A model generated the notes under the pieces. The model did no database searches. It was given only the letters and a program-made list of their open reading frames with translations, and was not told the origin of the DNA. The position numbers and the translations under genes were made by a program. From Nitrospirota bacterium (GTDB lineage: Bacteria > Nitrospirota > Thermodesulfovibrionia > Thermodesulfovibrionales > UBA6898), in assembly GCA_021783515.1 (NCBI GenBank), contig JAJXTV010000010.1, positions 29,053 through 93,052 on the forward strand: a DNA stretch of 64,000 nucleotides, given 5' to 3'. Shown one piece after another: positions 18,534 through 54,002 of this stretch (within the stretch, counting starts at the first letter, position 1; each line of letters starts with the position of its first letter).

Positions 18534-18812
18534 ATGATCCGATCATTCCTTGACGCGAGAGCCCAGGCACTGTTTAATGATCTTGACGTGCCGCGGTTTC
18601 GTCCGATCGAACGGGTTGCAAGGCGAAGGTTGCTGTACCTTCATCAGGCCAGTCGCCTGGAAGACCTCCGGGTGCCTCCGGGCAACCGGCTCGAAGCCCT
18701 GAAGGGCGATCGGAAGGGACAACACAGTATCAGGATCAATGATCAGTGGCGGATCTGCTTTCGCTGGAAAGACGGAGACGCCTATGACGTCGAAATTACA
18801 GACTACCATTAG
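18534..18812 (+). CDS. higB: HigB toxin (plasmid-maintenance killer protein family, RelE/ParE superfamily)
   Basis: 92 aa. MIRSF...ALF...LEDLRVPPGNRLEALKGDRKGQHSIRINDQWRICFRW...V.ITDYH is the classical HigB pattern. Confidence 0.85.
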   Translation: MIRSFLDARAQALFNDLDVPRFRPIERVARRRLLYLHQASRLEDLRVPPGNRLEALKGDRKGQHSIRINDQWRICFRWKDGDAYDVEITDYH

Positions 18813-18821
18813 AGGTGTGGC

Positions 18822-19127
18822 ATGACTGAAAAACAGGGAGTTCTTGAACCCATTCATCCGGGAGAGATCCTCCTGGAGGAGTTTATGAAGCCTTTTGGGA
18901 TCAGTATCAACAAACTGGCCCGTGACATCGCTGTACCGCCTGGCCGCATCAGCGCGATCGTCAACGGCAAGCGGGCGATAACCGCCGACACGGCCATGAG
19001 GCTCGGCCGATACTTTGGCACGTCGCCGGAGGTCTGGATGGGCCTGCAGACGGACTACGAACTTCGTGTCGCCAAGCGAACAATCGGGCCTGAGATAGAG
19101 AAACGCGTTCATCGTCACGCAGCATAG
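18822..19127 (+). CDS. higA: HigA antitoxin (XRE HTH)
   Basis: 101 aa. IHPGEILLEEFMKP...SINKLARDIAVPPGRISAIVNGKRAITADTAMRLGRYFGTSPEVWMGLQTDYEL. Confidence 0.85.
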   Translation: MTEKQGVLEPIHPGEILLEEFMKPFGISINKLARDIAVPPGRISAIVNGKRAITADTAMRLGRYFGTSPEVWMGLQTDYELRVAKRTIGPEIEKRVHRHAA

Positions 19128-19231
19128 CCAGGGAAAATAGTGACGCATCAGGATGTGTCCCTGGGCGGCGCCACAATGTCTGCTCTGACTGATAACTGAT
19201 AGATATGTGAATGTGAAACTGTTGAGGTTTT

Positions 19232-19325: not shown

Positions 19326-19814
19326 CTACTCAATGACAATAGTCTCCTCAATTGTTAAGGGTGTCATGCCCGTATGATTAATCAAGGCGGCATATACTCC
19401 TCGACAGCCTAGCTGAGTGCCTATGATTACCATTACAAATGCCCTAAGATTATGGCTCGATAATCGATAGCAGTCACTCATATCTGTGATATCAGTTCCA
19501 GATGGATGAGGGAGTTCCTCGGGATGAGTATGCCAGTCACCGATGAAGTGCAATCCATCTTTATGGCGCTGCCATATTTCTATTTGCTGAAGCCTTCGGT
19601 TTGGCTTAAATCCTTGGCGGCTTCTTTTATCGAGAATGCTTGGAGCCGTAGCCTCAAAAACAATCGTATCAGCCCCGACAAACCGTGCAAATAATTGCCC
19701 GCCTGCCTCCTTTGCTCGTGCAGAGAGTTGACGGTATCTATACATTGTGGATAGGGCCGTATCGGTCAGGACAATTGCCGGGCCTCCAGGTACCTCTACA
19801 AGACGCAGGCTCAT
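19326..19814 (-). CDS. cap3: CBASS Cap3 (JAB/JAMM isopeptidase)
   Basis: EAGGQL ... HTHPEELPHPSGTDITD (E, HxH, S, D of JAMM). The start at MSLRLVEV shares ATGA with the cap2 stop (19811-19814). Confidence 0.85.
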   Translation of the reverse strand: MSLRLVEVPGGPAIVLTDTALSTMYRYRQLSARAKEAGGQLFARFVGADTIVFEATAPSILDKRSRQGFKPNRRLQQIEIWQRHKDGLHFIGDWHTHPEELPHPSGTDITDMSDCYRLSSHNLRAFVMVIIGTQLGCRGVYAALINHTGMTPLTIEETIVIE

Positions 19815-21601
19815 GGGATGTGCTTTCCCGAGTGAGAGCATTCAGGACATTCTGCGTCAGGCGAAACAGGGATCTCCTTCGAGAGTCCGCCTTCTCCGGG
19901 GTCGCCATGGCTCTCCCCCCATGCCGGGTTCCACCTGCCGCCTGCACGCTCAATCATCTTCTTCGCTCCTATCCACACTCTGTGGGCAGAAACTGTGATG
20001 TTTCCGAGAAGAATATCAAGAGCTAGATCGGCTATGAGAGAATGAACGTGGGACACTTCGACGGCGCCGTAAGGTTGAAAGAAGCCTCCGCACGCGGGCA
20101 CTGCTTTGAGGGTTCCCTCTTCCGGCCATATTGTTATCGGTATTTTGGGCCTGCCCATATGATCTCTTATACAGTTCAAACAGCCCTGCTCCTTGTGAAA
20201 GACGACAGCATGGCCAGCCGTCGCGTGAGGCTCTGTCCAACCATACAAGATCGGGGACGAAATGAATGAGGAAACCGCCATCGCGTTCAGCCATCCCTCC
20301 GATCGCCAAGAGCCGATAGTTGAAATAAGGAGGTCGGGGTTGCCAATAGAAGGGAGTTCTTTTTCGCAAAAATCTTCACACGTCATATCATATCCTGCTA
20401 TGTCCAGATGGGGAAAACGAGCGGCCAGTCTTCTTGCCATAGTGGTAGCTTTATACATATGGAGAGAATTAAGTCCGAGTCTATGCCGTGCCGGATTTTC
20501 AGAAGCAAGCTGTTCGGGGTCTACCAGAAGGATGCGGCCTACTCCCGACATGGCAAGGAGCTCGGCAACGAAACTTCCAAGAGAGCCAACACCGAATATA
20601 ACAACAGTCGTTGTTGATAACTTTTGGATCTGCGGATTATGATCTCTGCCATGTATCCAGGACGCATCGAGACGTACAGCGCAAGATCCGGATATCTTAG
20701 ATCCCCGATAACGCATGAGGACGATGTCCTCTGGAGGCCGTTGATGATACCCCTTGTTTAATGTGATTGTAGGCTTGGAAATGCAAAGTCCTGCGAAAGC
20801 AACCCCGTTCCTTCCCGCAAAGCCAATCGCTACATCTTTGTATCGCAGGGCTTCATTCAGAAGAAGCTCTTTTACCATGGTATTGTCGACGGCCAAAATC
20901 TTCAGCACGGTATGAAGATGGTTGACTCTTGTCGGATACTCATCGGGCCGCAGCGGCCGAGGAAGCCACAGAAGGGGCATCTTCTGCACATTATTGGCTT
21001 TGAAGTCTTTATCCGACTTCCTGTTTCGTAGCCATTTCAGCAATGCCCCATCGTCTTCTGCAATGTAAACACCAGTCTGAGTGCGCCAGCTGCTGACCCA
21101 GCGGGAGGGGCCCTCCGGGCGGCAGAGCACATAGAAGAAATCCTTCCCTATAGAGTCCCATCTTACCCAGTACGACTGAAATTCATCCTCAAAGTCGATC
21201 GAATTGACCCCGGCGGCACTATCATTTACCAACTTAACCGCATCCGTCAGGAGGTCTCTGACTACGCCGGCGCAATCTCTCGTTGAAAACGCGGACGAAT
21301 CACTCAGCAGGCAAAGCATCCCCTTTGCCTCGAGATGTGGCCATTCTAGGAGGGAAGGGGCCGGCCAAGCAGCAACGCGTGGGCTGCTGAAGGGGACAGA
21401 AGCAGGAAGAAGCACCCTAAGGCTGTACTTGCCCGTGCCCATGCTCTGCCTGGGGATCTCCCACCCGTCGCTGAATTCGTTGCCATAGTAAGAAAGCTCC
21501 TTCTCGGTAAGGGGACGAGCCCCTGGTATAGCTTCGAGCAACTTTTGGACGCCCTGAAGAGATTGCCGATATCGGGTGTGATCAGGCAAATGTGCCACCA
21601 C
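19811..21601 (-). CDS. cap2: CBASS Cap2 (E2-like plus E1/ThiF-like fusion)
   Basis: N-terminal E2-like region with KGMLCLLSD. ThiF Rossmann loop VVIFGVGSLGSFVAELL...LVDPE, CxxC pairs CLNC and CPEC, and ACGGFFQPYG. The likely start is GTG at about 21601/21598, overlapping the CD-NTase stop. The 666-aa track ORF over-extends into the upstream gene. Confidence 0.8.
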   Translation of the reverse strand: MVAHLPDHTRYRQSLQGVQKLLEAIPGARPLTEKELSYYGNEFSDGWEIPRQSMGTGKYSLRVLLPASVPFSSPRVAAWPAPSLLEWPHLEAKGMLCLLSDSSAFSTRDCAGVVRDLLTDAVKLVNDSAAGVNSIDFEDEFQSYWVRWDSIGKDFFYVLCRPEGPSRWVSSWRTQTGVYIAEDDGALLKWLRNRKSDKDFKANNVQKMPLLWLPRPLRPDEYPTRVNHLHTVLKILAVDNTMVKELLLNEALRYKDVAIGFAGRNGVAFAGLCISKPTITLNKGYHQRPPEDIVLMRYRGSKISGSCAVRLDASWIHGRDHNPQIQKLSTTTVVIFGVGSLGSFVAELLAMSGVGRILLVDPEQLASENPARHRLGLNSLHMYKATTMARRLAARFPHLDIAGYDMTCEDFCEKELPSIGNPDLLISTIGSWRSEGWLNAMAVSSFISSPILYGWTEPHATAGHAVVFHKEQGCLNCIRDHMGRPKIPITIWPEEGTLKAVPACGGFFQPYGAVEVSHVHSLIADLALDILLGNITVSAHRVWIGAKKMIERAGGRWNPAWGESHGDPGEGGLSKEIPVSPDAECPECSHSGKHIP

Positions 21602-22610
21602 CTCTTTTGTCCACTGCTGGGGGATTGCTATTTGATGATAGGATGTTTGCAAAGACAGCAGAGGCCCCGTTGCTCTCGGATTTCTCCTGATAACGCGAAA
21701 AGAAGAAATCCGTATTAAAGACCTTGTCCCAGGCCTTAAGAGCATTCTTTCGTGAGCATGCGGGATCATCGAGGCATTTAAGATCGTCGAGGGCGATAGC
21801 GACCTTGTCACGCAAAAATGCGGTGCTTGAGTCGTCAGGGCCGCTTGTCAGCTTTGCTCCCGGCGTCACCGGGTGATTGACTTCGAGGTCGGAAAGAAGC
21901 CGCCGATGGATGGCGGCCATGGTGTCACGAAGGGCGACGTCTTCGCGGTCCTTGTTCGCCACGTAACATTCCTCGGAGAGCTTCGTTATGGTAAAACCGG
22001 TCGCGATGACGTCTTTCCACGCTGTCCGGCTTCGCGCGAACTTCTTAAGGAGACGAACAATTCTTCTGAACTGCCTTCCGTTGTCGATATCAGGGCTCTT
22101 AGTCATATTTACATCATTGAACCAGTCCTCCACATCTGCGGCACGGGAGATTGTCCACGAATCGCCTGTGGACAGTTCATATTCGGAGTCATCTGTGATC
22201 CGGTAAATCGGCATGTCCACATGATAGCCTTCCTCGTAATATATACGGACGCAACTCTTTCTTACCTGTGGCTGCTTATTGAAGCGGTCGTCTTGGAGAG
22301 CATCACAGACCATCTGACGGGCGTCTTTGGCAGCCATGTCTTTTCCGTCCTTTCCTTGAAGGGACTTCCTTGTGAAGTAAACGCCGTCGTCGATGTCATA
22401 GTCATTATCGGGGTCCTGCACCATAGTAAGCATGGCATAGGAGCCCTGCTTTATGAACTCCTGGGGCAGCGGCTTCCCCTTGTCCTTCAGGTTATTCTTC
22501 AGCCTCTCCCGGTTGGCGTTTCTCCTGTCCCTCATCGCAGTGCGGTCACTTTGGCTTAAGGTCACCCTTTCATCATGAAACCCAAGTACATCCTTTGCAC
22601 AGTCATACAT
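21582..22610 (-). CDS. CBASS cGAS/DncV-like nucleotidyltransferase (CD-NTase)
   Basis: 342 aa. It has the Pol-beta NTase motifs GSYAMLTMV...DNDYDIDDGVYF and YHVDMPIY. The start overlaps the capV stop (ATGTATGA). Confidence 0.85.
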   Translation of the reverse strand: MYDCAKDVLGFHDERVTLSQSDRTAMRDRRNANRERLKNNLKDKGKPLPQEFIKQGSYAMLTMVQDPDNDYDIDDGVYFTRKSLQGKDGKDMAAKDARQMVCDALQDDRFNKQPQVRKSCVRIYYEEGYHVDMPIYRITDDSEYELSTGDSWTISRAADVEDWFNDVNMTKSPDIDNGRQFRRIVRLLKKFARSRTAWKDVIATGFTITKLSEECYVANKDREDVALRDTMAAIHRRLLSDLEVNHPVTPGAKLTSGPDDSSTAFLRDKVAIALDDLKCLDDPACSRKNALKAWDKVFNTDFFFSRYQEKSESNGASAVFANILSSNSNPPAVDKRGGGTFA

Positions 22611-23694
22611 TACTGCTTCCTCCTTTTGCCGGACGTTCCGGCATGCTGTTAAAGAGATTATTTATGGCATTGCCATTTGGCGTACAGTTGCGGATTTCAC
22701 TATTGCAAGTACTCGCGTCTTGCCGGGCCTGACGGACTAAAGCGTCGAGCCCCTCAGGTCTGGTCTCATCAAGCTCGAGGTATTTCAACATTGCGCCCGG
22801 GATCTTATCCGCAGGGAAGCGTATAATATTGACCTTCTTTTTGAGGTAAGGAATCAGCTTGCTGCCGATCATGTCAAAGGCATATTCCTGAGCAGCGATA
22901 GAGACACCGGCGGCTATGCCGCCGAATTTCCACTCCTTGAGCCCCCGATGAACGCTATCCTTCTTAATCACTTCCCCTTCGGGTTTCCCGCAGCTTCCGA
23001 GGCTGAATATTTCGATCTCTTCATCATCGTCCTGGCTCATTTGTAAAGCCTCTACAAGAGCGACTATCACCGGGTTATTGGCCCAGAGGCCGCCGTCGGC
23101 AAAGACATCGTAGTTGCCGTTGTCGGGGTGGTCTACAGCAGCGAGAGATCTAAACAAGGGTGCGGCGCTGCTTGCTTGACAGACGTCGACAAGCGTGTAG
23201 TTATCATCCCGGTGATTAGTCCCATAGTCGTGGGGGGTCTTAAAAATATAGGAGCGAAAATTAGCCATATTCACCGCCGTAATAGCAAGGGCAATATGAC
23301 GTTCCTCCCAGATCTGACGGACGGTCGTGTTGCCGAAAACTTCACTCAGGGCCTTCCTCAGTGCCGCATCACCTTCTGCAAGCGCTGTTGGGCGCGTAAA
23401 CATCTGACACATGAGGTTGGGGCCTGCGGAGGACGGCATCTTTTTCCTAAATATTGAAGCCCCATTCTCTTTATAAAGAATTGCCATCTCGGAGGGACTT
23501 ACACCCTTGGCAAGGCCACAGCCTATGATGGCGCCGGTGCTTGTTCCCACGATAAGACTGAACGCCTTCCCAATATCGAGACCATGTTTAAACCCTCTTC
23601 TCTGAGCGAAGGACCTTTCAACCTCTGCAAGAAAAGTCGCCGTGTATATCCCCCGCATACCGCCCCCATCAATACTTAACACTCTGAATGCCAT
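22603..23694 (-). CDS. capV: CBASS effector CapV (patatin-like phospholipase)
   Basis: The start MAFRVLSIDGGGMRG is preceded by AAGGAGGG. It has the oxyanion GGGMRG, the nucleophile GTSTG and the catalytic Asp in ADGGLWANNP. Confidence 0.9.
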   Translation of the reverse strand: MAFRVLSIDGGGMRGIYTATFLAEVERSFAQRRGFKHGLDIGKAFSLIVGTSTGAIIGCGLAKGVSPSEMAILYKENGASIFRKKMPSSAGPNLMCQMFTRPTALAEGDAALRKALSEVFGNTTVRQIWEERHIALAITAVNMANFRSYIFKTPHDYGTNHRDDNYTLVDVCQASSAAPLFRSLAAVDHPDNGNYDVFADGGLWANNPVIVALVEALQMSQDDDEEIEIFSLGSCGKPEGEVIKKDSVHRGLKEWKFGGIAAGVSIAAQEYAFDMIGSKLIPYLKKKVNIIRFPADKIPGAMLKYLELDETRPEGLDALVRQARQDASTCNSEIRNCTPNGNAINNLFNSMPERPAKGGSSNV

Positions 23695-23738
23695 TCTGTG
23701 CCCTCCTTTTCTATCAGCGCACAACAACGCACAGCTTT

Positions 23739-23782
23739 TTACCTACAGGTTAAGTTTAACCTATAGGTAAAACAAAAGTCAA
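23739..23782 (-). promoter_or_regulatory. Predicted CBASS promoter with a near-perfect 15-bp inverted-repeat operator
   Basis: The minus strand reads TTGACT-tttgtt-TTACCTATAGGTTAA-ac-TTAACCTGTAGGTAA. The arms match at 14/15 positions, a TAAACT -10 candidate sits at the dyad centre, and the capV ATG is 45 nt downstream. Confidence 0.55.
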
Positions 23783-23829: not shown

Positions 23830-23889
23830 GTTGAGAACAGCTTTGCCGCTCGCAAAAAAGTCCTGCGGCTACTGAGCCGCGTTCTCAAC
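23830..23889 (-). terminator. Structured element between the TAC and CBASS operons (probable TAC terminator/insulator)
   Basis: The outer 9-bp stem is GTTGAGAAC/GTTCTCAAC. Inside, on the minus strand, is GCGGCT-cagt-AGCCGC followed by aggacTTTTTT. An alternative GCCGC/GCGGC pairing is also possible. Confidence 0.4.
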
Positions 23890-23966: not shown

Positions 23967-24455
23967 CTAATCGTTGACGCTTGCCTTCGCAGTACGGTTC
24001 TTCTTACTACTTTTCTTTGTTCCTTTTCTTGCTGTCTTGACGCCATCGTTTTTTGATAGATGCTCGTACACATTGATCGTTGGAAGAACAATTTTGTTAT
24101 ATGGTGAAAGACCTGAAAGTTGACCTAAGACTCCCCTAGCAATTCCGTAAAGATTTGTTATCCCTAGGGGGCCGATCATTTTTAACGCGTCAGCCTCTTG
24201 TATGCCGTTAGCAACATCAAACAGACCAAAGATGGACATCTCACACCTGTAAAGCCATTTTTTCTTGCTCTCTCTGTCGGCATTGATCTTTATATTCAAT
24301 GCAAGGAAAAATTCCTTATTATTATCCTTGTTCCGTCCTACATCAACACTCAACGCCACAACATCTTCATCGCGATTCTCAAAATCAACCGCTGGAATGG
24401 CTTCAAAATGAACTTTGTCGAGGAAGTAATCTTTAAGCTGCAACGGACTCGACAT
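23967..24455 (-). CDS. SecB-like chaperone of a TAC (toxin-antitoxin-chaperone) module
   Basis: 162 aa. It aligns by eye to SecB: LQLKDYFLDKVHFEAIP resembles FQIQRIYTKDISFEAPN, and YRCEMSIFGLFDV...NLYGIARGVLGQLSGLSPYNKIVLPTINV resembles the SecB core and C-terminal helix region. It has a Lys-rich tail. Confidence 0.75.
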   Translation of the reverse strand: MSSPLQLKDYFLDKVHFEAIPAVDFENRDEDVVALSVDVGRNKDNNKEFFLALNIKINADRESKKKWLYRCEMSIFGLFDVANGIQEADALKMIGPLGITNLYGIARGVLGQLSGLSPYNKIVLPTINVYEHLSKNDGVKTARKGTKKSSKKNRTAKASVND

Positions 24456-24840
24456 TCTGTGCCTCCAGCAGCTTGATGTCTAGGGTGCTACGATCAAAAA
24501 AAGGCGCTCTAGGCCTAGTTCTGTAATGCATTTTAGGCCACTTCAGCACGGTCGCCTTATCAGTGGCGGTCTTTTCAACAAGTGAAACGGACAAGTCACA
24601 CCCAATCACCGATGCAACTCGCAACATTTGCTTAATGGTCAGATTTGTCCCATAGAGCAACTTGGTCACGTATGCGGGCGTAACGCCAAGCTTCTCAGCA
24701 AATAATTTTCTGCTCCAGCCTTTTTCCTTTAGTTCTTTCGCTACGGTTTCGGTGAAATCATAGACGATCTCTTCATACTGATACTCCAGATGATCCTTAT
24801 ATTTTTCATGTAATTTATCCAGAATGCTGCTTTCTTTCAT
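24433..24840 (-). CDS. XRE-family HTH antitoxin with a C-terminal extension (candidate chaperone-addiction region)
   Basis: The HTH is WSRKLFAEKLGVTPAYVTKLLYGTNLTIKQMLRVASVIG, followed by an aromatic/basic tail of about 45 aa (LKWPKMHYRTRPRAPFFDRS). The stop overlaps the chaperone start by 23 nt. A GGAGGA SD lies upstream. Confidence 0.75.
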   Translation of the reverse strand: MKESSILDKLHEKYKDHLEYQYEEIVYDFTETVAKELKEKGWSRKLFAEKLGVTPAYVTKLLYGTNLTIKQMLRVASVIGCDLSVSLVEKTATDKATVLKWPKMHYRTRPRAPFFDRSTLDIKLLEAQNVESVAA

Positions 24841-24859
24841 GATTCCTCCATATCGTAAG

Positions 24860-25234
24860 TTAACCCTGGGAGTCTAAATACTCTTTAACCTCTTTAAGCA
24901 AGCAAAGACCCCGCCTTATTTCCGAGCGCGGAGTAGCCCTTGTTTCCTTCTTAAATCCATGCAGGAGAACAATATCATCATGTAATGGGTGTCCTTTGTG
25001 AGTTCTGTAACACGTAAATCGATAATGCCCCCGTTTAAGCTCATAAAGATCCCCTCTCAGTTTGCGAAATTTAGTCTCATCTGCCGGGGTTCCATTAGTT
25101 TCAATCTTTTTGAGAAATGCCACCCACTGTGACTGTATATGCTCCGGCAACCGAGTAAAATAATCATACGCTTCGGCGCAGCAAAATAATCGTGTACGAA
25201 CATCATTCCTACTCAGTTGAATAATATTAGCCAA
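24860..25234 (-). CDS. HigB/Gp49-like (RelE superfamily) toxin of the TAC module
   Basis: 124 aa. It has the pattern F...LPEHIQSQWVAFLKKIETNG...KFRKLRGDLYELKRGHYRFTCYR...IVLLHGFKK typical of phage Gp49-like HigB toxins. The track start is TTG and the true start is uncertain. Confidence 0.7.
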   Translation of the reverse strand: MANIIQLSRNDVRTRLFCCAEAYDYFTRLPEHIQSQWVAFLKKIETNGTPADETKFRKLRGDLYELKRGHYRFTCYRTHKGHPLHDDIVLLHGFKKETRATPRSEIRRGLCLLKEVKEYLDSQG

Positions 25235-25237
25235 TAT

Positions 25238-25293
25238 TTAACCTAAAAGTAAAGTATTGTCAAGAGGTTTTTTAAAAAGAGGTTTTTAAAAAG
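25238..25293 (-). promoter_or_regulatory. TAC upstream region: TTGACA, a CBASS-like 15-nt box, and two tandem A/T-palindrome repeats
   Basis: The minus strand reads CTTTTTAAAAACCT-CTTTTTAAAAAACCT-C-TTGACA-atact-TTACTTTTAGGTTAA-at-aTTG(start). The box is 13/15 identical to the CBASS operator arm. Confidence 0.45.
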
Positions 25294-25624: not shown

Positions 25625-25663
25625 CAGTATACATCTTTATTTTTCAGTATACATCTTTATTTT
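25625..25663. repeat. Perfect tandem direct duplication (CAGTATACATCTTTATTTT, 20-nt period)
   Basis: Read directly. The copies lie at 25625-25643 and 25645-25663, 10 nt downstream of the trmJ stop at the right island edge. Confidence 0.85.
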
Positions 25664-25673
25664 CCCTGGACAT

Positions 25674-26594: not shown

Positions 26595-26927
26595 ATGCAC
26601 CTCTACGGCGACAGGATATCGCAGTGCAGCATCTGTAAAGCCGAATATACCTCATTTCACTTCGAGGTCATGCCCGCCTGCAGGGTATATGTCTGCGGGG
26701 AATGCATGGAGTTGGCGAGGGACCACTTCATATGGATCTGCCTGAACTGCGGCCGTTCTTTTTGGAGGCCGAAGAACGTCGTCATGAACAGGATCCATGA
26801 TTACGGGCTGAAAGAGGCGGTATTTCTCTATGAGAACCGGATCATCCACGGGATCGCAGGCTGCATCCACTGTTCTCCGGACCTGATCCTGGAATACACC
26901 GACCGTCTCGGCAAATGCGCGTTGTAA
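26595..26927 (+). CDS. Hypothetical Cys-rich (multi-CxxC, zinc-ribbon-like) protein
   Basis: 110 aa with an SD (GAGGA) upstream. It contains CSIC, CGEC, CLNC and CIHC pairs. Confidence 0.45.
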   Translation: MHLYGDRISQCSICKAEYTSFHFEVMPACRVYVCGECMELARDHFIWICLNCGRSFWRPKNVVMNRIHDYGLKEAVFLYENRIIHGIAGCIHCSPDLILEYTDRLGKCAL

Positions 26928-49346: not shown

Positions 49347-50249
49347 ATGCGGAGAATCGGCGTGCATACATCGATAGCCGGAGGGCTGCCGGCAAGCTTC
49401 GAAAGGGCGAGGGCGCTCGGCTGTTCGGCTTTTCAGATATTCTCCCATAATCCCCGCGGATGGGCACTCACGCGGCGTGCGGAGGGGGAGATAGCCGCCT
49501 TCCGGAAGATGGCAGGAGATTTCGACATAAGCCCGGTCGTTATCCATACGTCCTATCTGATCAATATGGCCTCCGGCGCCCCCGCTCTTTGGAGAAGGTC
49601 TGTCGACATGGTCGCCGAAGAGATGGAGATTGCAGATTCCATCGGCGCCCGGTATGTTGTTCTCCACACCGGCAGCGCCTCGGGCGACGAGCCTGCCGGG
49701 GCGAGAAAGAGGGCGGCAGCCGGCCTTGCCGAGGTTGCCGGCAGAGGTAAATGGCGCGCGGGTCTCTTGCTCGAAAATACGGCGGGTGAGCGGGGCGATA
49801 TTGCTTCGAAGATAGGGGAAATGGCGGACATAGTGGACCGCGTTCCTTCCGGTCTCATAGCAGGGATATGTCTTGACACGTGCCATGCCTTCGCCGCAGG
49901 GTACGATATTGCTTCCCGGGATGGCCTTGCAATTCTGGCCGGCGAGATCAGGAAACACCTGGGTAAACGCAGCCTCAGGCTTATCCATCTGAACGATTCG
50001 AAGGGGGTCCTTTCTTCCGGGCTCGACAGGCACGAGCACATAGGAGAGGGCAGGATAGGCATCGAAGGGTTCAAGCGGTTCCTCGGAGAGCCTTTTTTTT
50101 CCGGAGTCCCGCTGATTCTCGAAACACCGAAGAAGACAGAGGAGGACGACCCAAGGAACCTCCGGGTGGTGAGAGGCCTGCTGGAAGAGACGGCTTCTTC
50201 AGATGACAGCACTTCCGGCGTCGTGAAGAGCCGGCATGACGCTTTGTGA
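49347..50249 (+). CDS. nfo: Endonuclease IV (AP endonuclease, TIM barrel)
   Basis: MRRIGVHTSIAGG..., VIHTSYLINMAS, VVLHTGS, LLENTAG, GICLDTCHAFAAGYD and IHLNDSK. Confidence 0.85.
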   Translation: MRRIGVHTSIAGGLPASFERARALGCSAFQIFSHNPRGWALTRRAEGEIAAFRKMAGDFDISPVVIHTSYLINMASGAPALWRRSVDMVAEEMEIADSIGARYVVLHTGSASGDEPAGARKRAAAGLAEVAGRGKWRAGLLLENTAGERGDIASKIGEMADIVDRVPSGLIAGICLDTCHAFAAGYDIASRDGLAILAGEIRKHLGKRSLRLIHLNDSKGVLSSGLDRHEHIGEGRIGIEGFKRFLGEPFFSGVPLILETPKKTEEDDPRNLRVVRGLLEETASSDDSTSGVVKSRHDAL

Positions 50250-50678
50250 AATCCGGACCTTTCCCTATAGTTCCGGCGCTATAGCGGATCTGACGGCCGC
50301 AGGACCACAATCTTCTTCGGCCCCCGCCGGGCCTCGCTGTTAAAATACCCTTTTTATACAGGGCAATTTCATGGTAACGTTTACTGATAAGCCCTCCAGA
50401 GTTATCTCTCGCGCTGCATAAATATCGTCACGGAGGCTCTTTCCGGCTGTATGCAACGTTAGGGTTATCATCTGTGAATGATTGTTCAAGTTCTGGAACA
50501 GTTGTATCCTCAACCTATCTTATACTTCAATATATTAAGCTTATCCGTTTCTATTTCAGATTCCTTCGTAGCTATTTCACGCTTACTTGTTACAACATAA
50601 TGCCAGCTTCGTTTACCTGAAAAACAGAAATGTTATTAAAATGAATTTTGTTGTTGACAAAGTCAATTATTTTGTTGT

Positions 50679-51263
50679 ATGGTTATAAACATAATGTCAA
50701 AGCAGGCAAGAGATACACTAAAAAGTTTGTTCTCCTCGGCGATCAGGGCCGATCTGCTTGCCCTCCTCCTTAATAACCCTGACGAGAAATTCTATGTAAG
50801 AGAAATGGCTACCCTGCTGAGAAAGAACCCTTCCGGGGTGAAGAGGGAACTGGACAACCTCGAAAAAATGGGGATAGTAACGAGCAAGAAGGTAGCGAAT
50901 CTGAAATATTTCCAGGCCGAAAAGAAATCCCCTCTTTTTTCTGAGCTTAAGAGTCTGATTGCGAAGTCTCTCGGCGCTGGAGGGGCTCTCAAGGCCCTCC
51001 TAAAGACTTCGGGTGCGAAGATCGCGTTCATTTATGGCCCTTATGCCGAGAGCGAAGATGCGGAAACGGTCGACCTGTTGATTGTCGGCGTTTCAGCCGC
51101 TCTGAATATTGAGGGGCTTAAAGATATAGAGGAAAAGTTCGGGAAGAAGATCAATGCTACCATCATAGACGAGAGCGGCTTCAAGGCTAAAAAGGATGGA
51201 GCGGATCCCGAATTCGAGAAGCTCCTGTCAGGCAACAAGATTTTGCTGACAGGGAAGCTTTAA
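50679..51263 (+). CDS. Winged-helix (ArsR-like) regulator fused to a degenerate minimal nucleotidyltransferase-like domain
   Basis: wHTH: RADLLALLLNNPDEKFYVREMATLLRKNPSGVKRELDNLEKMGIV. The C-terminus has AFIYGPYAESEDAETVDLLIVG, which resembles the MNT motif FGSYARG...D.DLLVV. The ATG at 50694 is an alternative start. Confidence 0.55.
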   Translation: MVINIMSKQARDTLKSLFSSAIRADLLALLLNNPDEKFYVREMATLLRKNPSGVKRELDNLEKMGIVTSKKVANLKYFQAEKKSPLFSELKSLIAKSLGAGGALKALLKTSGAKIAFIYGPYAESEDAETVDLLIVGVSAALNIEGLKDIEEKFGKKINATIIDESGFKAKKDGADPEFEKLLSGNKILLTGKL

Positions 51264-51308
51264 CTTAAACTTCCCCGGCCTCCCGGGGATGGAAAGGTGG
51301 TGAAGAAG

Positions 51309-51392
51309 ATGGCAGTAAAGAAGGCAGCAGCTAAGAAGCCCGCAGCTAAGAAGGCAGCCCCGAAGAAGGCAGCAGCGAAGAAGAAGAAATAA
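51309..51392 (+). CDS. Unlisted 27-aa Lys/Ala-rich (histone H1-like) micro-ORF
   Basis: It encodes MAVKKAAAKKPAAKKAAPKKAAAKKKK, with a purine-rich stretch upstream, and is followed at once by a strong intrinsic terminator. Confidence 0.35.
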   Translation: MAVKKAAAKKPAAKKAAPKKAAAKKKK

Positions 51393-51414
51393 GTTAGGTT
51401 AAATAACTACTTAG

Positions 51415-51449
51415 GGCTGGAGAACCGTCATTCTCCAGCCTCTTTTTTT
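51415..51449 (+). terminator. Rho-independent terminator
   Basis: GGCTGGAGAA-ccgtca-TTCTCCAGCC (10-bp perfect stem), followed by CTCTTTTTTT. Confidence 0.8.
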
Positions 51450-51521
51450 GCGTTTATCTTAGCACAGATGACTGCAAATTGGGAAATTCTTTTCGGCTTT
51501 TTTTGTAACTAACTGATTTGT

Positions 51522-52418
51522 TTAAGCATTTATCTGCAGCAACGGACTGACCGATATCTTTTCTTCCACAATCAGGTCCCATGCCTCGGGGTAGGCGAGC
51601 AATTTTTTCAGGAATTTGATATTCGACGAATGCCCCGACTTGCTCGCTATGATATGACCATAGATCGGGAAGCCAAGTATCGCAAAATCGCCAATTAAGT
51701 CGAGAACTTTGTGGCGCACGAACTCGTCCTTGAAACGGAGACCCGAGGAATTCAGCACGCCGTTTTCGCCGAGTATCACGGCGTTATCGAGTGAGCCGCC
51801 CTTCGCGAGACCGTTTGTCCTGAGATACTCGATATCCTTGAGAAACCCGAAGGTCCTTGCCGGCGCAATTTCTCTGGCGAAGGCTTCTTCGTCGATTTCG
51901 AGGCTGAGTCTCTGCTCTCCAAAGCCGTAGTGATTGAAGAAGATGCTATAGGTGATTCGTCTGCCGTCATAGGGGAGCGCAGCGATCTTGGAATTGCCGT
52001 CGTCGAAAATGACCGGCCTCCTGATCCTCAGAAACGGTCTCTTCTTTCCCTGCTTGGCGATACCGGCCTGCAAGATGATGTTTATCAGTTCCGTCGAGCT
52101 TCCGTCGATTATCGGGATCTCGGGGCCGTTGACGTCGATGACGACATTGTCTATCCCCAGACCGGCGAGAGCAGCCATGATATGTTCTACTGTTCGTATC
52201 TTGGCGCCGTCCTGTCCTATCGTCGTGGCAAATGCCGTGTCGATGACGGAGCCGACGTGCGCCTTGATCACCGTGTTCTTGTCGCTCCGGATGAAAGTGA
52301 TGCCGGTGTCTCTCGAGGCAGGCTTCATCGTCACCTTCGCATGTCTTCCGGTGTGCAAGCCGATTCCCTCAAAGGATATCTCGTTCTTAATCGTTCTTTG
52401 TGAGCGCATAATAATCAA
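51522..52418 (-). CDS. lpxC: UDP-3-O-acyl-N-acetylglucosamine deacetylase
   Basis: QRTIKNEISFEGIGLHTG, TVEHIMAAL.GLGIDN and HKVLDLIGDF...H.SGH are LpxC hallmarks. Confidence 0.9.
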   Translation of the reverse strand: MIIMRSQRTIKNEISFEGIGLHTGRHAKVTMKPASRDTGITFIRSDKNTVIKAHVGSVIDTAFATTIGQDGAKIRTVEHIMAALAGLGIDNVVIDVNGPEIPIIDGSSTELINIILQAGIAKQGKKRPFLRIRRPVIFDDGNSKIAALPYDGRRITYSIFFNHYGFGEQRLSLEIDEEAFAREIAPARTFGFLKDIEYLRTNGLAKGGSLDNAVILGENGVLNSSGLRFKDEFVRHKVLDLIGDFAILGFPIYGHIIASKSGHSSNIKFLKKLLAYPEAWDLIVEEKISVSPLLQINA

Positions 52419-52562: not shown

Positions 52563-54002
52563 TCAGCGGTGCGCCCCTCCCACGACGATCTCGGGGATCC
52601 GCACTGTAGGCATCGCATCCGAGACGGGGACGCCCTGCGAGTCCTTCCCGCATGTGCCGATCGAAAAGCCGAGGTCATTGGCGACCATATCGATCGATTC
52701 CAGTACGCCGGGGCCGTTGCCGGTCAGCGTAGCGCCTCTTACCGGCTCCCCTTTCATCCCTTGTTCGATCAGATACCCCTCCTGGACGTCGAATACAAAG
52801 TCGCCCGTGACCGTGTTGACCTGTCCGCCGCCCATCTTTTCGACGAGGAGCCCCCTGTCGAGGGACCTCAGGACCTCTTCGGGCTGCATCCTGCCTTCCG
52901 CGATGAACGTGTTCGTCATCCTCGGGATCGGCCGGTGACGGTAGGATTCGCGCCTGCCGTTTCCGGTTGAGAGCACCCCGTCTTTCATGGAGGAGAGCTT
53001 GTCGTAAAGGTAGCACTGGAGGATGCCGTCCTGCACGAGGACGGTACGCCGGGAAGGCGTGCCCTCGTCGTCGAACCTGAATGAGCCCCTCTTCCCCGGC
53101 AGGGTCGAGTCGTCGACGACGGTGACAAGCGGCGAGGCCACACGTTTGCCGATCTTGTCCGAGAATACCGAGAGCTTCTGCCGGGCGAGGTCCGCTTCGA
53201 GACCGTGTCCGATCGCTTCGTGTATCATGGTGCCGCCGGCTGTCGATGAGATGACGACAGGCATCCTCCCTGCAGGGGCCTTTTGCGCCCCCAGCATCAT
53301 TAACGCGCGGGCGGCGGCCTTCAGCGCGATGCGGTCCAGTCCGCCCTCGTCAAAGAGCTCGAATCCGGCCATGCCGCCGAGGGTTTCATATCCGGTCTGG
53401 ATAACGTCATCCTGCGCGGCGATGACCTGAACGACGCCGGTTGTGTATACCCGTTCGTCGTCGGCGACAAACCCTTCTGAATTCGCGATCCGGACCTTCT
53501 GGACCGAATCCCGGTATATCGCAGTTACCTGCCTGATCCTGTCGTCAGACCTGCGTGCCGCCCTGTCGGCGTCCCTCACGAGCAGGATCTTCCTGCCGAT
53601 CGGCACGGACGGAGGCAGGAGCCGTACGTCGAACGCAAGGGCGGGTCTTCTGACGGTCAGGTCCCTCGCCGTCCCCGAAGCGCCGTCTGAGGCGGCCCTG
53701 CCCGCCTCGTGCGCTGCCTGCAGAAGCGCCTTCGCTGAAAGGTCATTGCTGTAAGCATAGGACGTTTTTCCCTTATGAATGAGGCGGATCCCGGCGCCGG
53801 ATTCACCTCCGGTGACGACCTTCTCGATCTTTCCGTCCTCCAGGACGATGGATGTCTGCATTCGGGACTCCACAAAGACGTCGGCGTATTCCCCGCCTTG
53901 CGCGAGTGCCTCCCGGATCAGGGCGAGCAGAAGTTCCGTATCGATCAATTTTGTCTCATGTGAAAGGAATAGGCAGATTCGCCGTCGAAATATCGACTGC
54001 AA
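52563..54002 (-). CDS. tldD: TldD-family metalloprotease
   Basis: 479 aa. HEAIGHGLEAD (HExxxH) and a C-terminal GxC region (IGTCGKDSQGVPV). The N-terminal start is uncertain. Confidence 0.85.
   Translation of the reverse strand: MQSIFRRRICLFLSHETKLIDTELLLALIREALAQGGEYADVFVESRMQTSIVLEDGKIEKVVTGGESGAGIRLIHKGKTSYAYSNDLSAKALLQAAHEAGRAASDGASGTARDLTVRRPALAFDVRLLPPSVPIGRKILLVRDADRAARRSDDRIRQVTAIYRDSVQKVRIANSEGFVADDERVYTTGVVQVIAAQDDVIQTGYETLGGMAGFELFDEGGLDRIALKAAARALMMLGAQKAPAGRMPVVISSTAGGTMIHEAIGHGLEADLARQKLSVFSDKIGKRVASPLVTVVDDSTLPGKRGSFRFDDEGTPSRRTVLVQDGILQCYLYDKLSSMKDGVLSTGNGRRESYRHRPIPRMTNTFIAEGRMQPEEVLRSLDRGLLVEKMGGGQVNTVTGDFVFDVQEGYLIEQGMKGEPVRGATLTGNGPGVLESIDMVANDLGFSIGTCGKDSQGVPVSDAMPTVRIPEIVVGGAHR

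What the first reader, a model, noticed from the sequence alone, without database searches (positions are those of the whole stretch)
19326..23694. Complete four-gene type II CBASS operon (capV, CD-NTase, cap2, cap3)
Seen in sequence: four minus-strand genes are packed with overlapping stop and start codons. The capV stop and CD-NTase start share ATGTATGA at 22603-22610, and the cap2 stop and cap3 start share ATGA at 19811-19814. The motifs read directly are: patatin GGGMRG / GTSTG / DGG; nucleotidyltransferase GSYAM...DNDYDIDDG and HVDMPIY; E2-like KGMLCLL followed by a ThiF Rossmann loop FGVGSLGS and the CLNC/CPEC pairs; and JAMM EAGGQL...HTHPEELPHPSGTD. Established knowledge: this gene order and domain set is the type II CBASS anti-phage architecture. 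A cyclic-oligonucleotide synthase is primed by the E1/E2-like Cap2, Cap3 reverses that step, and a nucleotide-activated phospholipase kills the cell. The family is known, so this copy is not new, but it is the clearest accessory defence element in the window. The CD-NTase clade and its nucleotide product cannot be read from the sequence.
Basis: partly seen in the sequence, partly recalled or inferred. Interest (0 to 1): 0.7.

Follow-up and report, generated by a model that had tools for sequence, protein, structure and literature searches.

The report
Intact type II CBASS anti-phage operon
This is an ordinary, intact four-gene type II CBASS anti-phage operon (phospholipase, nucleotide cyclase, ubiquitin-like activating enzyme and its opposing peptidase) on a small low-GC island in an uncultured Nitrospiraceae genome.

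Summary
Each protein matches the corresponding CBASS profile strongly: phospholipase 1.8e-94, cyclase 1.2e-136, E1-E2 3.7e-163, JAB 2e-50. All catalytic residues are intact and invariant among homologues. Two corrections: capV from ATG 23694 is 363 aa, not 374, and cap2 starts at TTG 21589 (592 aa), not at the 666-aa ORF start.

New here: the cyclase ends in ...KRGGGTFA. This is the same tail type as E. cloacae CdnD (...KTGRFA), which Cap2 adenylates. In related genomes, 53 of 53 loci with a full-length Cap2 have a cyclase ending in Ala or Gly. The nearest solved cyclase is B. fragilis CdnB (clade B04), then DncV. The nucleotide product remains unknown.

The same cassette, with the same overlaps, occurs across many phyla and on conjugative plasmids. 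The exact protein is already in NCBI as a "hypothetical protein" from a Nitrospiraceae MAG.

The only unusual feature is a 36-bp palindrome over the capV promoter. Half of it recurs upstream of the adjacent toxin-antitoxin-SecB operon. The element is known biology and of low interest.

The parts
22603..23694 (-). capV: patatin-like, cyclic-nucleotide-activated phospholipase effector (363 aa). Oxyanion loop G10GGMRG, nucleophile Ser52 (GTSTG), catalytic Asp200 (DGG).
   Evidence: PADLOC Phospholipase PDLC00758 1.8e-94. Pfam Patatin 3.5e-23. NCBIfam CBASS_lipase 203.6 bits against cut-off 200. Nearest solved structures are cGAMP-activated CapV 8ZR9/9KEJ at 7.5e-27. Motif positions.
21582..22610 (-). 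cdn: cGAS/DncV-like nucleotidyltransferase (342 aa). Catalytic G56 S57, D72 x D74, D132. Ubiquitin-like C-terminal tail ...VDKRGGGTFA.
   Evidence: PADLOC Cyclase PDLC00783 1.2e-136 over 1-342. Pfam DncV-like_NTFase 1.7e-24. Catalytic residues invariant in 28 homologues. Tail conserved in top homologues and in loci with Cap2. Nearest solved structure is BfCdnB 7LJO.
19811..21589 (-). cap2: E2-linker-E1 fusion (592 aa, TTG start). E2 Cys93, adenylation loop G333xG335xxG338, E1 loop Cys500, zinc-site CxxC pairs at 470/473 and 581/584.
   Evidence: PADLOC E1-E2 PDLC00836 3.7e-163, profile 10-601 of 602. Pfam Prok-E2_B plus ThiF. C93, C500 and the glycine loop are invariant in 21 homologues. A profile of these homologues hits E. 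cloacae Cap2 7TSQ/7TO3 best, at 6e-20. Start codon.
19326..19814 (-). cap3: JAB/JAMM metallopeptidase (162 aa). E36, H95xH97, S105, D108.
   Evidence: PADLOC JAB PDLC00891 2e-50. Pfam Prok-JAB. NCBIfam Cap3 isopeptidase model 1.9e-18, below its equivalog cut-off. Motif. ATGA overlap with cap2.
23753..23782 (-). Promoter-like site for the operon: TTGACT, 18 nt, TAAACT.
   Evidence: Consensus scan, 9 of 12 matches. The scan found 11 sites against 8.2 expected, so this is a match to a consensus only.
23738..23773 (.). 36-bp near-perfect palindrome (TTTTACCTATAGGTTAA AC TTAACCTGTAGGTAAAA) overlapping the -10 hexamer. Candidate repressor operator.
   Evidence: Not conserved upstream of capV in the closest loci L081, L001, L002 and L005. 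The same palindrome class sits in front of HTH regulator genes in unrelated metagenome contigs.
23865..23880 (-). Terminator-like hairpin (GCGGCTCAGTAGCCGC followed by a T-run) between the upstream SecB-like gene and the capV promoter. It suggests CBASS is its own transcription unit.
   Evidence: Consensus match only; the scan found 10 sites against 10.0 expected.

Best explanation
A functional type II CBASS abortive-infection operon, capV-cdn-cap2-cap3, acquired horizontally.

Shown here: four intact, overlapping genes, all catalytic residues, and a Cap2-type C-terminal tail on the cyclase.

Inferred from characterised homologues:
1. The operon is transcribed from its own promoter. A repressor may bind the palindrome over the -10 element. 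The 8/8/4-nt overlaps couple translation of the four genes.
2. Cap2 adenylates the C-terminal Ala342 of the CD-NTase at its ThiF-type site. It passes the tail as a thioester from E1 Cys500 to E2 Cys93 and ligates it to a target amine. This primes the cyclase.
3. Cap3, a zinc JAMM peptidase, cleaves these conjugates and restrains the system.
4. On phage infection the primed CD-NTase makes a cyclic di- or oligonucleotide. Its identity is unknown; a cGAMP-type dinucleotide is the leading guess.
5. CapV binds the nucleotide and its Ser52-Asp200 dyad degrades membrane phospholipids. The cell dies before phage release.
For: - System-specific profiles for all four genes, Pfam domains and the NCBIfam lipase equivalog.
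- G56, S57, D72, D74 and D132 are invariant in the cyclase. C93, C500 and GxGxxG are invariant in Cap2. The JAMM and patatin motifs are complete.
- The cyclase tail KRGGGTFA matches the E. cloacae CdnD tail KTGRFA. That tail was seen AMP-conjugated in the Cap2 E1 site, and Cap3 cleaves it specifically (bioRxiv 10.1101/2022.03.31.486616). The mechanism is also described in PMC10097602.
- All 53 related loci with a full-length Cap2 match have cyclases ending in A or G, mostly GGGR[FYH]A. Four loci with no ThiF match have unrelated tails.
- Gene order and overlaps are conserved from 87% down to 50% identity, in L081 and in a Mesorhizobium conjugative plasmid.
- GC3 is 0.42-0.61 in the cassette against 0.65-0.82 in flanking housekeeping genes. 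Homologues sit in different contexts, next to a serine recombinase or a Tn3 transposase.
Against: - There is no functional data for this copy or for any close (>50% identical) relative.
- The cyclase falls below NCBIfam's cGAS equivalog cut-off (121.8 against 150), and Cap3 falls below its equivalog cut-off (67 against 200). The sub-family is therefore distinct from the characterised V. cholerae system.
- By sequence, Cap2 aligns to solved Cap2 only over the adenylation core. Assignment of the E2 and E1 cysteines rests on invariance and position, not on a structural superposition.
- The promoter and terminator are consensus matches only.
Confidence: 0.93

Rival explanations
1. Compound module: the adjacent toxin-antitoxin-SecB chaperone (TAC) operon and CBASS are co-regulated. 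The TAC helix-turn-helix antitoxin would also bind the palindrome over the capV -10 element. CBASS would then be de-repressed when the antitoxin is lost during infection. This adds a regulatory layer and does not replace the CBASS reading.
For: - The 18-mer TTTACCTATAGGTTAAAC (up to 3 mismatches) occurs in the 64-kb window only within the capV palindrome and at 25236-25253. That second site is on the same strand, just upstream of the TAC toxin start. No match occurred in 100 shuffles.
- Both sites lie 7-8 nt downstream of a TTGAC(A/T) hexamer.
- The same palindrome class lies in front of HTH regulator genes elsewhere, which fits an operator role.
- The operons are adjacent, co-oriented and share low GC3.
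Against: - The TAC site is only a half-site and overlaps that gene's likely ribosome-binding site.
- A terminator-like hairpin separates the two operons.
- None of 80 related CBASS loci has TAC genes nearby, and the closest CBASS relatives lack the palindrome.
- No relatives of the antitoxin could be found for a comparative test.
- The palindrome class is associated with different HTH families (XRE, ArsR), so the binder cannot be inferred.
Confidence: 0.08
2. The cyclase is a functional equivalent of DncV: it makes 3'3'-cGAMP, which activates CapV. This is a sub-hypothesis about the signal molecule.
For: - CapV passes the NCBIfam 'cGAMP-activated phospholipase' equivalog cut-off.
- The nearest solved effectors are cGAMP-activated CapV.
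- The gene order is the same as the V. cholerae capV-dncV-cap2-cap3 operon (own knowledge).
- DncV is detectable with the family profile at 3.9e-7.
Against: - The cyclase is 342 aa and falls below the cGAS equivalog cut-off (121.8 against 150).
- Its nearest solved relative is BfCdnB of clade B04 (6e-26), far ahead of DncV (clade name from PMC10442399).
- Clade B enzymes include 2'3'-cGAMP makers (CdnB02; PMC10402079).
- A cUMP-AMP-activated patatin effector also exists (9IOM). Effector family does not fix the ligand.
Confidence: 0.4
3. The cassette is an inactive relic, or a ubiquitin-like conjugation and lipase system with a non-defence role.
For: No experiment exists for this copy. It comes from a metagenome-assembled genome.
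Against: - All four ORFs are uninterrupted and every catalytic residue is retained.
- The overlaps are preserved exactly as in distant copies.
- All components match defence-system profiles over their full length.
- The cassette lies between two toxin-antitoxin systems in a low-GC island.
Confidence: 0.03

Closest known systems
Vibrio cholerae VSP-1 CBASS (capV-dncV-cap2-cap3; clade A CD-NTase DncV)
   Same: Same four components in the same order. Patatin effector CapV, E1/E2 fusion Cap2 and JAB Cap3. Cap2 conjugates the cyclase C-terminus and Cap3 reverses this.
   Different: The cyclase here is about 100 aa shorter (342 aa). It is only weakly similar to DncV (1.8e-6 as a single sequence) and fails the cGAS equivalog cut-off. 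Its tail ends in ...TFA rather than in Gly (DncV G436). CapV aligns with solved cGAMP-activated CapV at 7.5e-27 over residues 3-336.
Enterobacter cloacae type II CBASS (CdnD with Cap2/Cap3; structures 7TO3, 7TSQ)
   Same: The cyclase tail is of the same type: E. cloacae ...KTGRFA, here ...GGGTFA, family consensus ...GGGRFA. The terminal Ala is the residue adenylated by Cap2. E. cloacae Cap2 is the best solved match to the Cap2 family profile.
   Different: The cyclases belong to different clades. The family profile shows no detectable similarity to any other solved CD-NTase (clades C, D, E or G) at E<=1. The effector in E. cloacae is the endonuclease Cap4 (own knowledge), not a patatin lipase. 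Cap2 sequence similarity is confined to the adenylation core.
Bacteroides fragilis CdnB (clade B04, PDB 7LJO)
   Same: Nearest solved CD-NTase: 7.7e-19 as a single sequence and 6.2e-26 with the family profile. Similar length (341 aa). The GS, DxD and D motifs align (identity of 7LJO from PMC10442399 and PMC12804361).
   Different: The match is distant, in the E-value range above, so clade B membership is provisional. No tree was built.
Mesorhizobium sp. NZP2077 plasmid pMSNZP2077NSa cassette (WP_172235206/05/04/03)
   Same: About 50% identical cyclase. The same four genes with the same 8/8/4-nt overlaps.
   Different: It lies on a conjugative plasmid beside a Tn3 transposase. It has no TAC or HigBA neighbours. 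It is uncharacterised and carries only generic PGAP names.

Membership tests
Type II CBASS | CD-NTase with the GS ... [D/E]xD ... D catalytic signature | tested here: met
   G56-S57, D72-I-D74 and D132 are present and invariant in 28 homologues. PADLOC cyclase 1.2e-136 and Pfam PF21654. The motifs align to the same motifs in BfCdnB.
Type II CBASS | Adjacent cyclic-nucleotide-activated effector (here patatin-like CapV with GGGxRG, GxSxG and DGG) | tested here: met
   PADLOC effector 1.8e-94. NCBIfam CBASS_lipase above the curated cut-off. Motifs at residues 10-15, 50-54 and 200-202. Nucleotide binding itself was not tested.
Type II CBASS | Cap2: one polypeptide with an N-terminal E2 domain and a C-terminal E1/ThiF adenylation domain, each with a catalytic Cys | tested here: met
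   Pfam Prok-E2_B (residues 115-217 of the 666-aa ORF) plus ThiF (394-554). PADLOC E1-E2 profile covered 10-601 of 602 at 3.7e-163. C93, C500 and GxGxxG are invariant. The structural equivalence of C93 and C500 to E. cloacae C109 and C548 is inferred, not superposed.
Type II CBASS | Cap3: JAB/JAMM peptidase with E ... HxH-x7-S-xx-D | tested here: met
   E36 and H95-T-H97-x7-S105-xx-D108. PADLOC JAB 2e-50 and Pfam Prok-JAB.
Type II CBASS | CD-NTase with an extended C-terminal tail ending in a conserved small residue (Gly or Ala), the substrate of Cap2 and Cap3 | tested here: met
   The tail is ...VDKRGGGTFA. 99 of the 120 top homologues end in (R/T/G/H)FA. All 53 loci with a full-length Cap2 end in A or G. 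The tail is of the same type as the E. cloacae CdnD ...GRFA tail.
Type II CBASS | The four genes form one operon | tested here: met
   Same strand, with overlaps of 8, 8 and 4 nt. The order is conserved in most of 80 loci. Transcription was not measured.
Type II CBASS | Protects against phage by nucleotide-triggered cell death | not testable with these tools
   Needs cloning and phage challenge.
CD-NTase clade B (CdnB) | Placement inside clade B of the published CD-NTase tree | tested here: inconclusive
   Only a proxy was available. The ranking of solved structures was CdnB 6e-26, then unnamed 8YS* nucleotidyltransferases 3e-20, then DncV 4e-7, with nothing for clades C-H. No tree was built, because the reference set and the papers (Whiteley 2019, Millman 2020) are not held.
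DncV / cGAS equivalog (3'3'-cGAMP synthase) | Score above NCBIfam NF041078 curated cut-off | tested here: not met
   121.8 bits against a cut-off of 150, and only residues 13-142 matched in the best stretch.

The most novel reading that the evidence does not exclude
The CBASS promoter carries a 36-bp double palindrome. Half of it recurs, uniquely within the 64-kb window, in front of the neighbouring toxin-antitoxin-SecB (TAC) operon. If the TAC antitoxin represses both promoters, CBASS expression would depend on antitoxin and chaperone status. That would be a previously undescribed toxin-antitoxin-gated control of CBASS. The 6.5-kb TAC+CBASS block, bracketed by an inverted CCAGGGAAAATA repeat, could then be one co-mobile defence unit.
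Probability: 0.08. Interest if true: 0.5.

Novelty: new member of a known kind. Interest (0 to 1): 0.15.

Why it matters
It matters little beyond annotation. It shows that Nitrospiraceae carry a canonical, apparently functional type II CBASS. It names four proteins now deposited as "hypothetical", "ThiF family" and similar. It also documents a widespread CapV-linked cyclase sub-family of about 342 aa with a GGG(R/T)FA tail, nearest to CdnB, whose nucleotide product has not been determined. That sub-family would be a reasonable target for product identification. The possible shared operator with a TAC system is the only feature that could lead to something new.

Tried and rejected
I judged another whole-database search just to build an allowed alignment unjustified, so the E2 and E1 cysteines were not superposed on 7TO3.
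- For clade placement, Millman 2020 and Whiteley 2019 are not held. The identity of the second-best PDB family (8YSC/8YSD/8YSN) could not be found in the library. Only a ranking of solved structures is given.
- An empty-site test of the island was not possible. Contigs carrying the identical SpoU methylase all show the same arrangement.
- The inverted 12-mer that brackets the block was not found at informative places in other loci. Inverted seeds of 10-12 nt are expected by chance within 10 kb, so a terminal-inverted-repeat reading is not claimed.
- A comparative test of the shared promoter element failed. The TAC antitoxin has no relatives in viral contigs or in the protein database apart from itself.
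- The palindrome is not conserved upstream of capV in the closest relatives. It is therefore not a family-wide CBASS regulatory element such as a CapW or CapH site, and no CapW, CapH or CapP gene is present.
- The window has no tRNA and no Rfam family. No integrase lies in the island.
- The second low-GC stretch at 50-52 kb holds housekeeping genes, not another defence island.
Full report
**Observation.** The region 19326-23694 holds four minus-strand ORFs. ATGTATGA at 22610-22603 contains the cdn start and the capV stop. ATGA at 19814-19811 contains the cap3 start and the cap2 stop. Every quoted motif is present, and I placed each in protein coordinates.

Two details need correcting:
- From the ATG at 23694 (AGGAGG seven nt upstream) CapV is 363 aa. 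The 374-aa figure belongs to an upstream TTG.
- The longest cap2 ORF (666 aa, GTG 21811) overlaps cdn by 230 nt. The real start is TTG 21589 (MPDHTRY..., 592 aa). This start is supported by three results: a 592-aa gene call with an 8-nt overlap in the 87%-identical locus L081, 'MPD' N-termini in many homologues, and the PGAP annotation of a plasmid copy.

All three junctions therefore overlap, by 8, 8 and 4 nt.

**Identity of the four proteins.**

| Protein | PADLOC | Pfam |
|---|---|---|
| CapV | Phospholipase, 1.8e-94 | Patatin |
| CD-NTase | Cyclase, 1.2e-136 over the whole protein | DncV-like_NTFase |
| Cap2 | E1-E2, 3.7e-163, profile 10-601 of 602 | Prok-E2_B + ThiF |
| Cap3 | JAB, 2e-50 | Prok-JAB |

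All Pfam hits are above the gathering thresholds. NCBIfam puts CapV just above the curated 'CBASS cGAMP-activated phospholipase' cut-off (203.6 against 200). The cyclase stays below the cGAS equivalog cut-off (121.8 against 150), and Cap3 stays below its own.

Among solved structures:
- CapV is nearest to cGAMP-activated CapV (7.5e-27).
- The cyclase is nearest to 7LJO (7.7e-19). Two papers identify 7LJO as Bacteroides fragilis CdnB, clade B04.
- Cap3 is nearest to a 156-aa peptidase, 9ILD.
- As a single sequence, Cap2 matches only ThiF-type adenylation cores.

**Catalytic integrity.** In an alignment of 28 cyclase homologues (60-87% identity), G56, S57, D72, D74 and D132 are invariant. In 21 Cap2 homologues the invariant residues are C93 (GMLCLL, preceded by WPH), G333/G335/G338, C500 (PACGG) and H460. 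The two CxxC pairs (470/473 and 581/584) are nearly invariant, as expected for an E1 zinc site. A profile of this alignment finds E. cloacae Cap2 (7TSQ/7TSX/7TO3) as the best solved match, at 6e-20, but only over the adenylation core. Cap3 has the full JAMM signature E36 ... H95xH97-x7-S105-xx-D108. CapV has G10GGMRG, S52 and D200.

**The cyclase tail.** The cyclase ends in ...NPPAVDKRGGGTFA. Of the 120 best database homologues, 99 end in (R/T/G/H)FA after a GGG run. The E. cloacae CdnD peptide that was crystallised AMP-conjugated in the Cap2 E1 site is KPAEPQKTGRFA. The same paper reports that type II cyclases have a disordered tail with a conserved C-terminus, which Cap2 ligates to targets and Cap3 cleaves precisely (see also PMC10097602).

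Across 80 related genome loci, all 53 with a full-length Cap2 match have cyclases ending in Ala or Gly, mostly GGGR[FYH]A. Four loci with no ThiF-like match have unrelated tails. This link between tail and Cap2 within the family is the strongest new support for the priming step in this sub-family.

**Distribution and mobility.** The exact cyclase is already in NCBI as 'MAG: hypothetical protein M0Z60_07680 [Nitrospiraceae bacterium]'. A further 2323 proteins match it at E<=1e-10. Related loci come from Nitrospirota, Geobacteraceae, Acidobacteriota, many Alphaproteobacteria, Planctomycetota, Bacteroidota and others. Most keep the order capV-cdn-cap2-cap3.

The closest copy (L081) lies beside a large serine recombinase and RHS toxins. 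Copies about 50% identical lie on conjugative rhizobial plasmids. One Mesorhizobium copy sits next to a Tn3 transposase and has identical gene overlaps.

In the window, GC3 of the cassette is 0.42-0.61, against 0.65-0.82 in the flanking SpoU methylase, NadE, nitroreductase and RluA genes (GC profile). None of the 80 loci has the window's neighbours. The cassette is therefore an independently mobile unit that has landed in a small defence island.

**Clade and product.** The family profile ranks solved cyclases as CdnB (6e-26), then an unnamed 8YS* family (3e-20), then DncV (4e-7). Nothing from clades C-H appears at E<=1. I call it provisionally clade B-like, because I could not build the reference tree. 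Clade B is heterogeneous: CdnB02 enzymes make 2'3'-cGAMP. Patatin effectors respond to different dinucleotides, as shown by the cUMP-AMP-activated 9IOM. The product remains open, and I put 3'3'-cGAMP at about 0.4.

**Regulatory region and neighbours.** A terminator-like hairpin (23880-23865) follows the upstream SecB-like gene. It precedes a promoter-like TTGACT-18-TAAACT at 23782-23753. Both are consensus matches only.

A 36-bp near-perfect palindrome (23738-23773) overlaps the -10 hexamer. The closest CBASS relatives lack it. The same double-box pattern (TTAACCTnnAGGTTAA, twice) occurs in six metagenome contigs. In L086 it lies in front of an XRE-type HTH plus IrrE/M78 peptidase pair. In the four related actinobacterial-type contigs (ORFs and Pfam examined in L085) it lies in front of an ArsR-type regulator. 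That fits an operator, but its binder here is unknown.

Within the window, the half-site 18-mer recurs only at 25236-25253, just upstream of the adjacent toxin gene (0 of 100 shuffles gave any match). That neighbour is a toxin-antitoxin-chaperone operon:
- Gp49/HigB-like toxin, 25234-24860.
- HTH antitoxin with a long C-terminal tail, 24840-24433.
- SecB-like chaperone, 24455-23967.

A canonical HigB/HigA pair lies on the other side, at 18534-19127. Co-regulation of TAC and CBASS is possible but untested. I could not find any antitoxin relatives for a comparative test.

**Verdict.** This is a textbook, intact type II CBASS and a new member of a known kind. Interest is low (0.15). The only thread worth following is the shared promoter element with the TAC operon, and even that rests on a single half-site match.

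Noticed in passing
window 23967-25234 (minus strand): A tripartite toxin-antitoxin-chaperone (TAC-like) operon lies directly upstream of capV. It comprises a Gp49/HigB-like toxin (25234-24860, Pfam 4e-11), an XRE-type HTH antitoxin of 135 aa with a ~50-aa C-terminal extension (24840-24433), and a SecB-like chaperone (24455-23967, Pfam SecB 6.5e-7, above gathering). The antitoxin and chaperone genes overlap by 23 nt. GC3 is 0.38-0.50.
   Followed up: partly
window 18534-19127 (plus strand): A canonical HigB/HigA toxin-antitoxin pair (HigB-like_toxin 5.7e-16; NCBIfam antidote_HigA 5.8e-32) is convergent with cap3. Its GC3 (0.62-0.66) is closer to the host genes than that of the CBASS/TAC block.
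   Followed up: partly
window 25236-25253 and 23738-23773: An 18-nt element (TTTACnTnTAGGTTAAA) is shared between the capV promoter palindrome and the region just upstream of the TAC toxin start. Each copy lies 7-8 nt after a TTGAC(A/T) hexamer. It occurs nowhere else in the window, and no match occurred in 100 shuffles.
   Followed up: partly
window 19128-19148 and 25649-25669; 25625-25661: An inverted 21-nt repeat (81% complementary; exact 12-mer CCAGGGAAAATA, found only twice in the window) abuts the higA stop on one side and the spoU stop on the other. It brackets the 6.5-kb low-GC3 TAC+CBASS block. Next to the right arm is an exact tandem repeat of AATAAAGATGTATACTG. These could be insertion boundaries or chance. 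No transposase or integrase lies inside.
   Followed up: partly
L084-L089 (metagenome contigs), e.g. L086:6611-6638: The double palindrome TTAACCTnnAGGTTAA-nn-TTAACCTnnAGGT(T/A)AA recurs in unrelated contigs in promoter-like positions. In L086 it lies upstream of an XRE HTH plus IrrE/Peptidase_M78 pair in a phage-like context. In four related high-GC contigs (ORFs checked in L085) it lies upstream of an ArsR-family regulator.
   Followed up: partly
L005, L010, L016-L020, L025, L034, L035, L051, L052, L055, L056, L059, L067 (and L027, L029, L030, L039, L061): A sister sub-family of capV-cdn loci has cyclases ending in ...DDKPRGF(G/A). Downstream there is only a short ThiF-core match, or none, and no Cap3 match to the window proteins. 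Its ubiquitin-like accessory genes may be divergent or arranged differently.
   Followed up: no
L081:3648-4274 and L090:7511-8221: A 'plasmid pRiA4b ORF-3 family' protein (PF07929) lies near the CBASS cassette both in the closest metagenomic relative and on the Mesorhizobium plasmid. It is absent from the window.
   Followed up: no
window 26595-26927 (plus strand): A 110-aa Cys-rich ORF with several CxxC pairs and no Pfam match lies between spoU and nadE. It is also called as a gene in the independent contig L083.
   Followed up: no
window 50000-52000: A second GC dip (0.47-0.49) holds housekeeping genes: LpxC at 51522-52418, TldD/PmbA at 52563-54002, a xylose-isomerase-like TIM-barrel protein at 49347-50249, and a small winged-helix protein at 50679-51263. 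It is not a defence island.
   Followed up: yes
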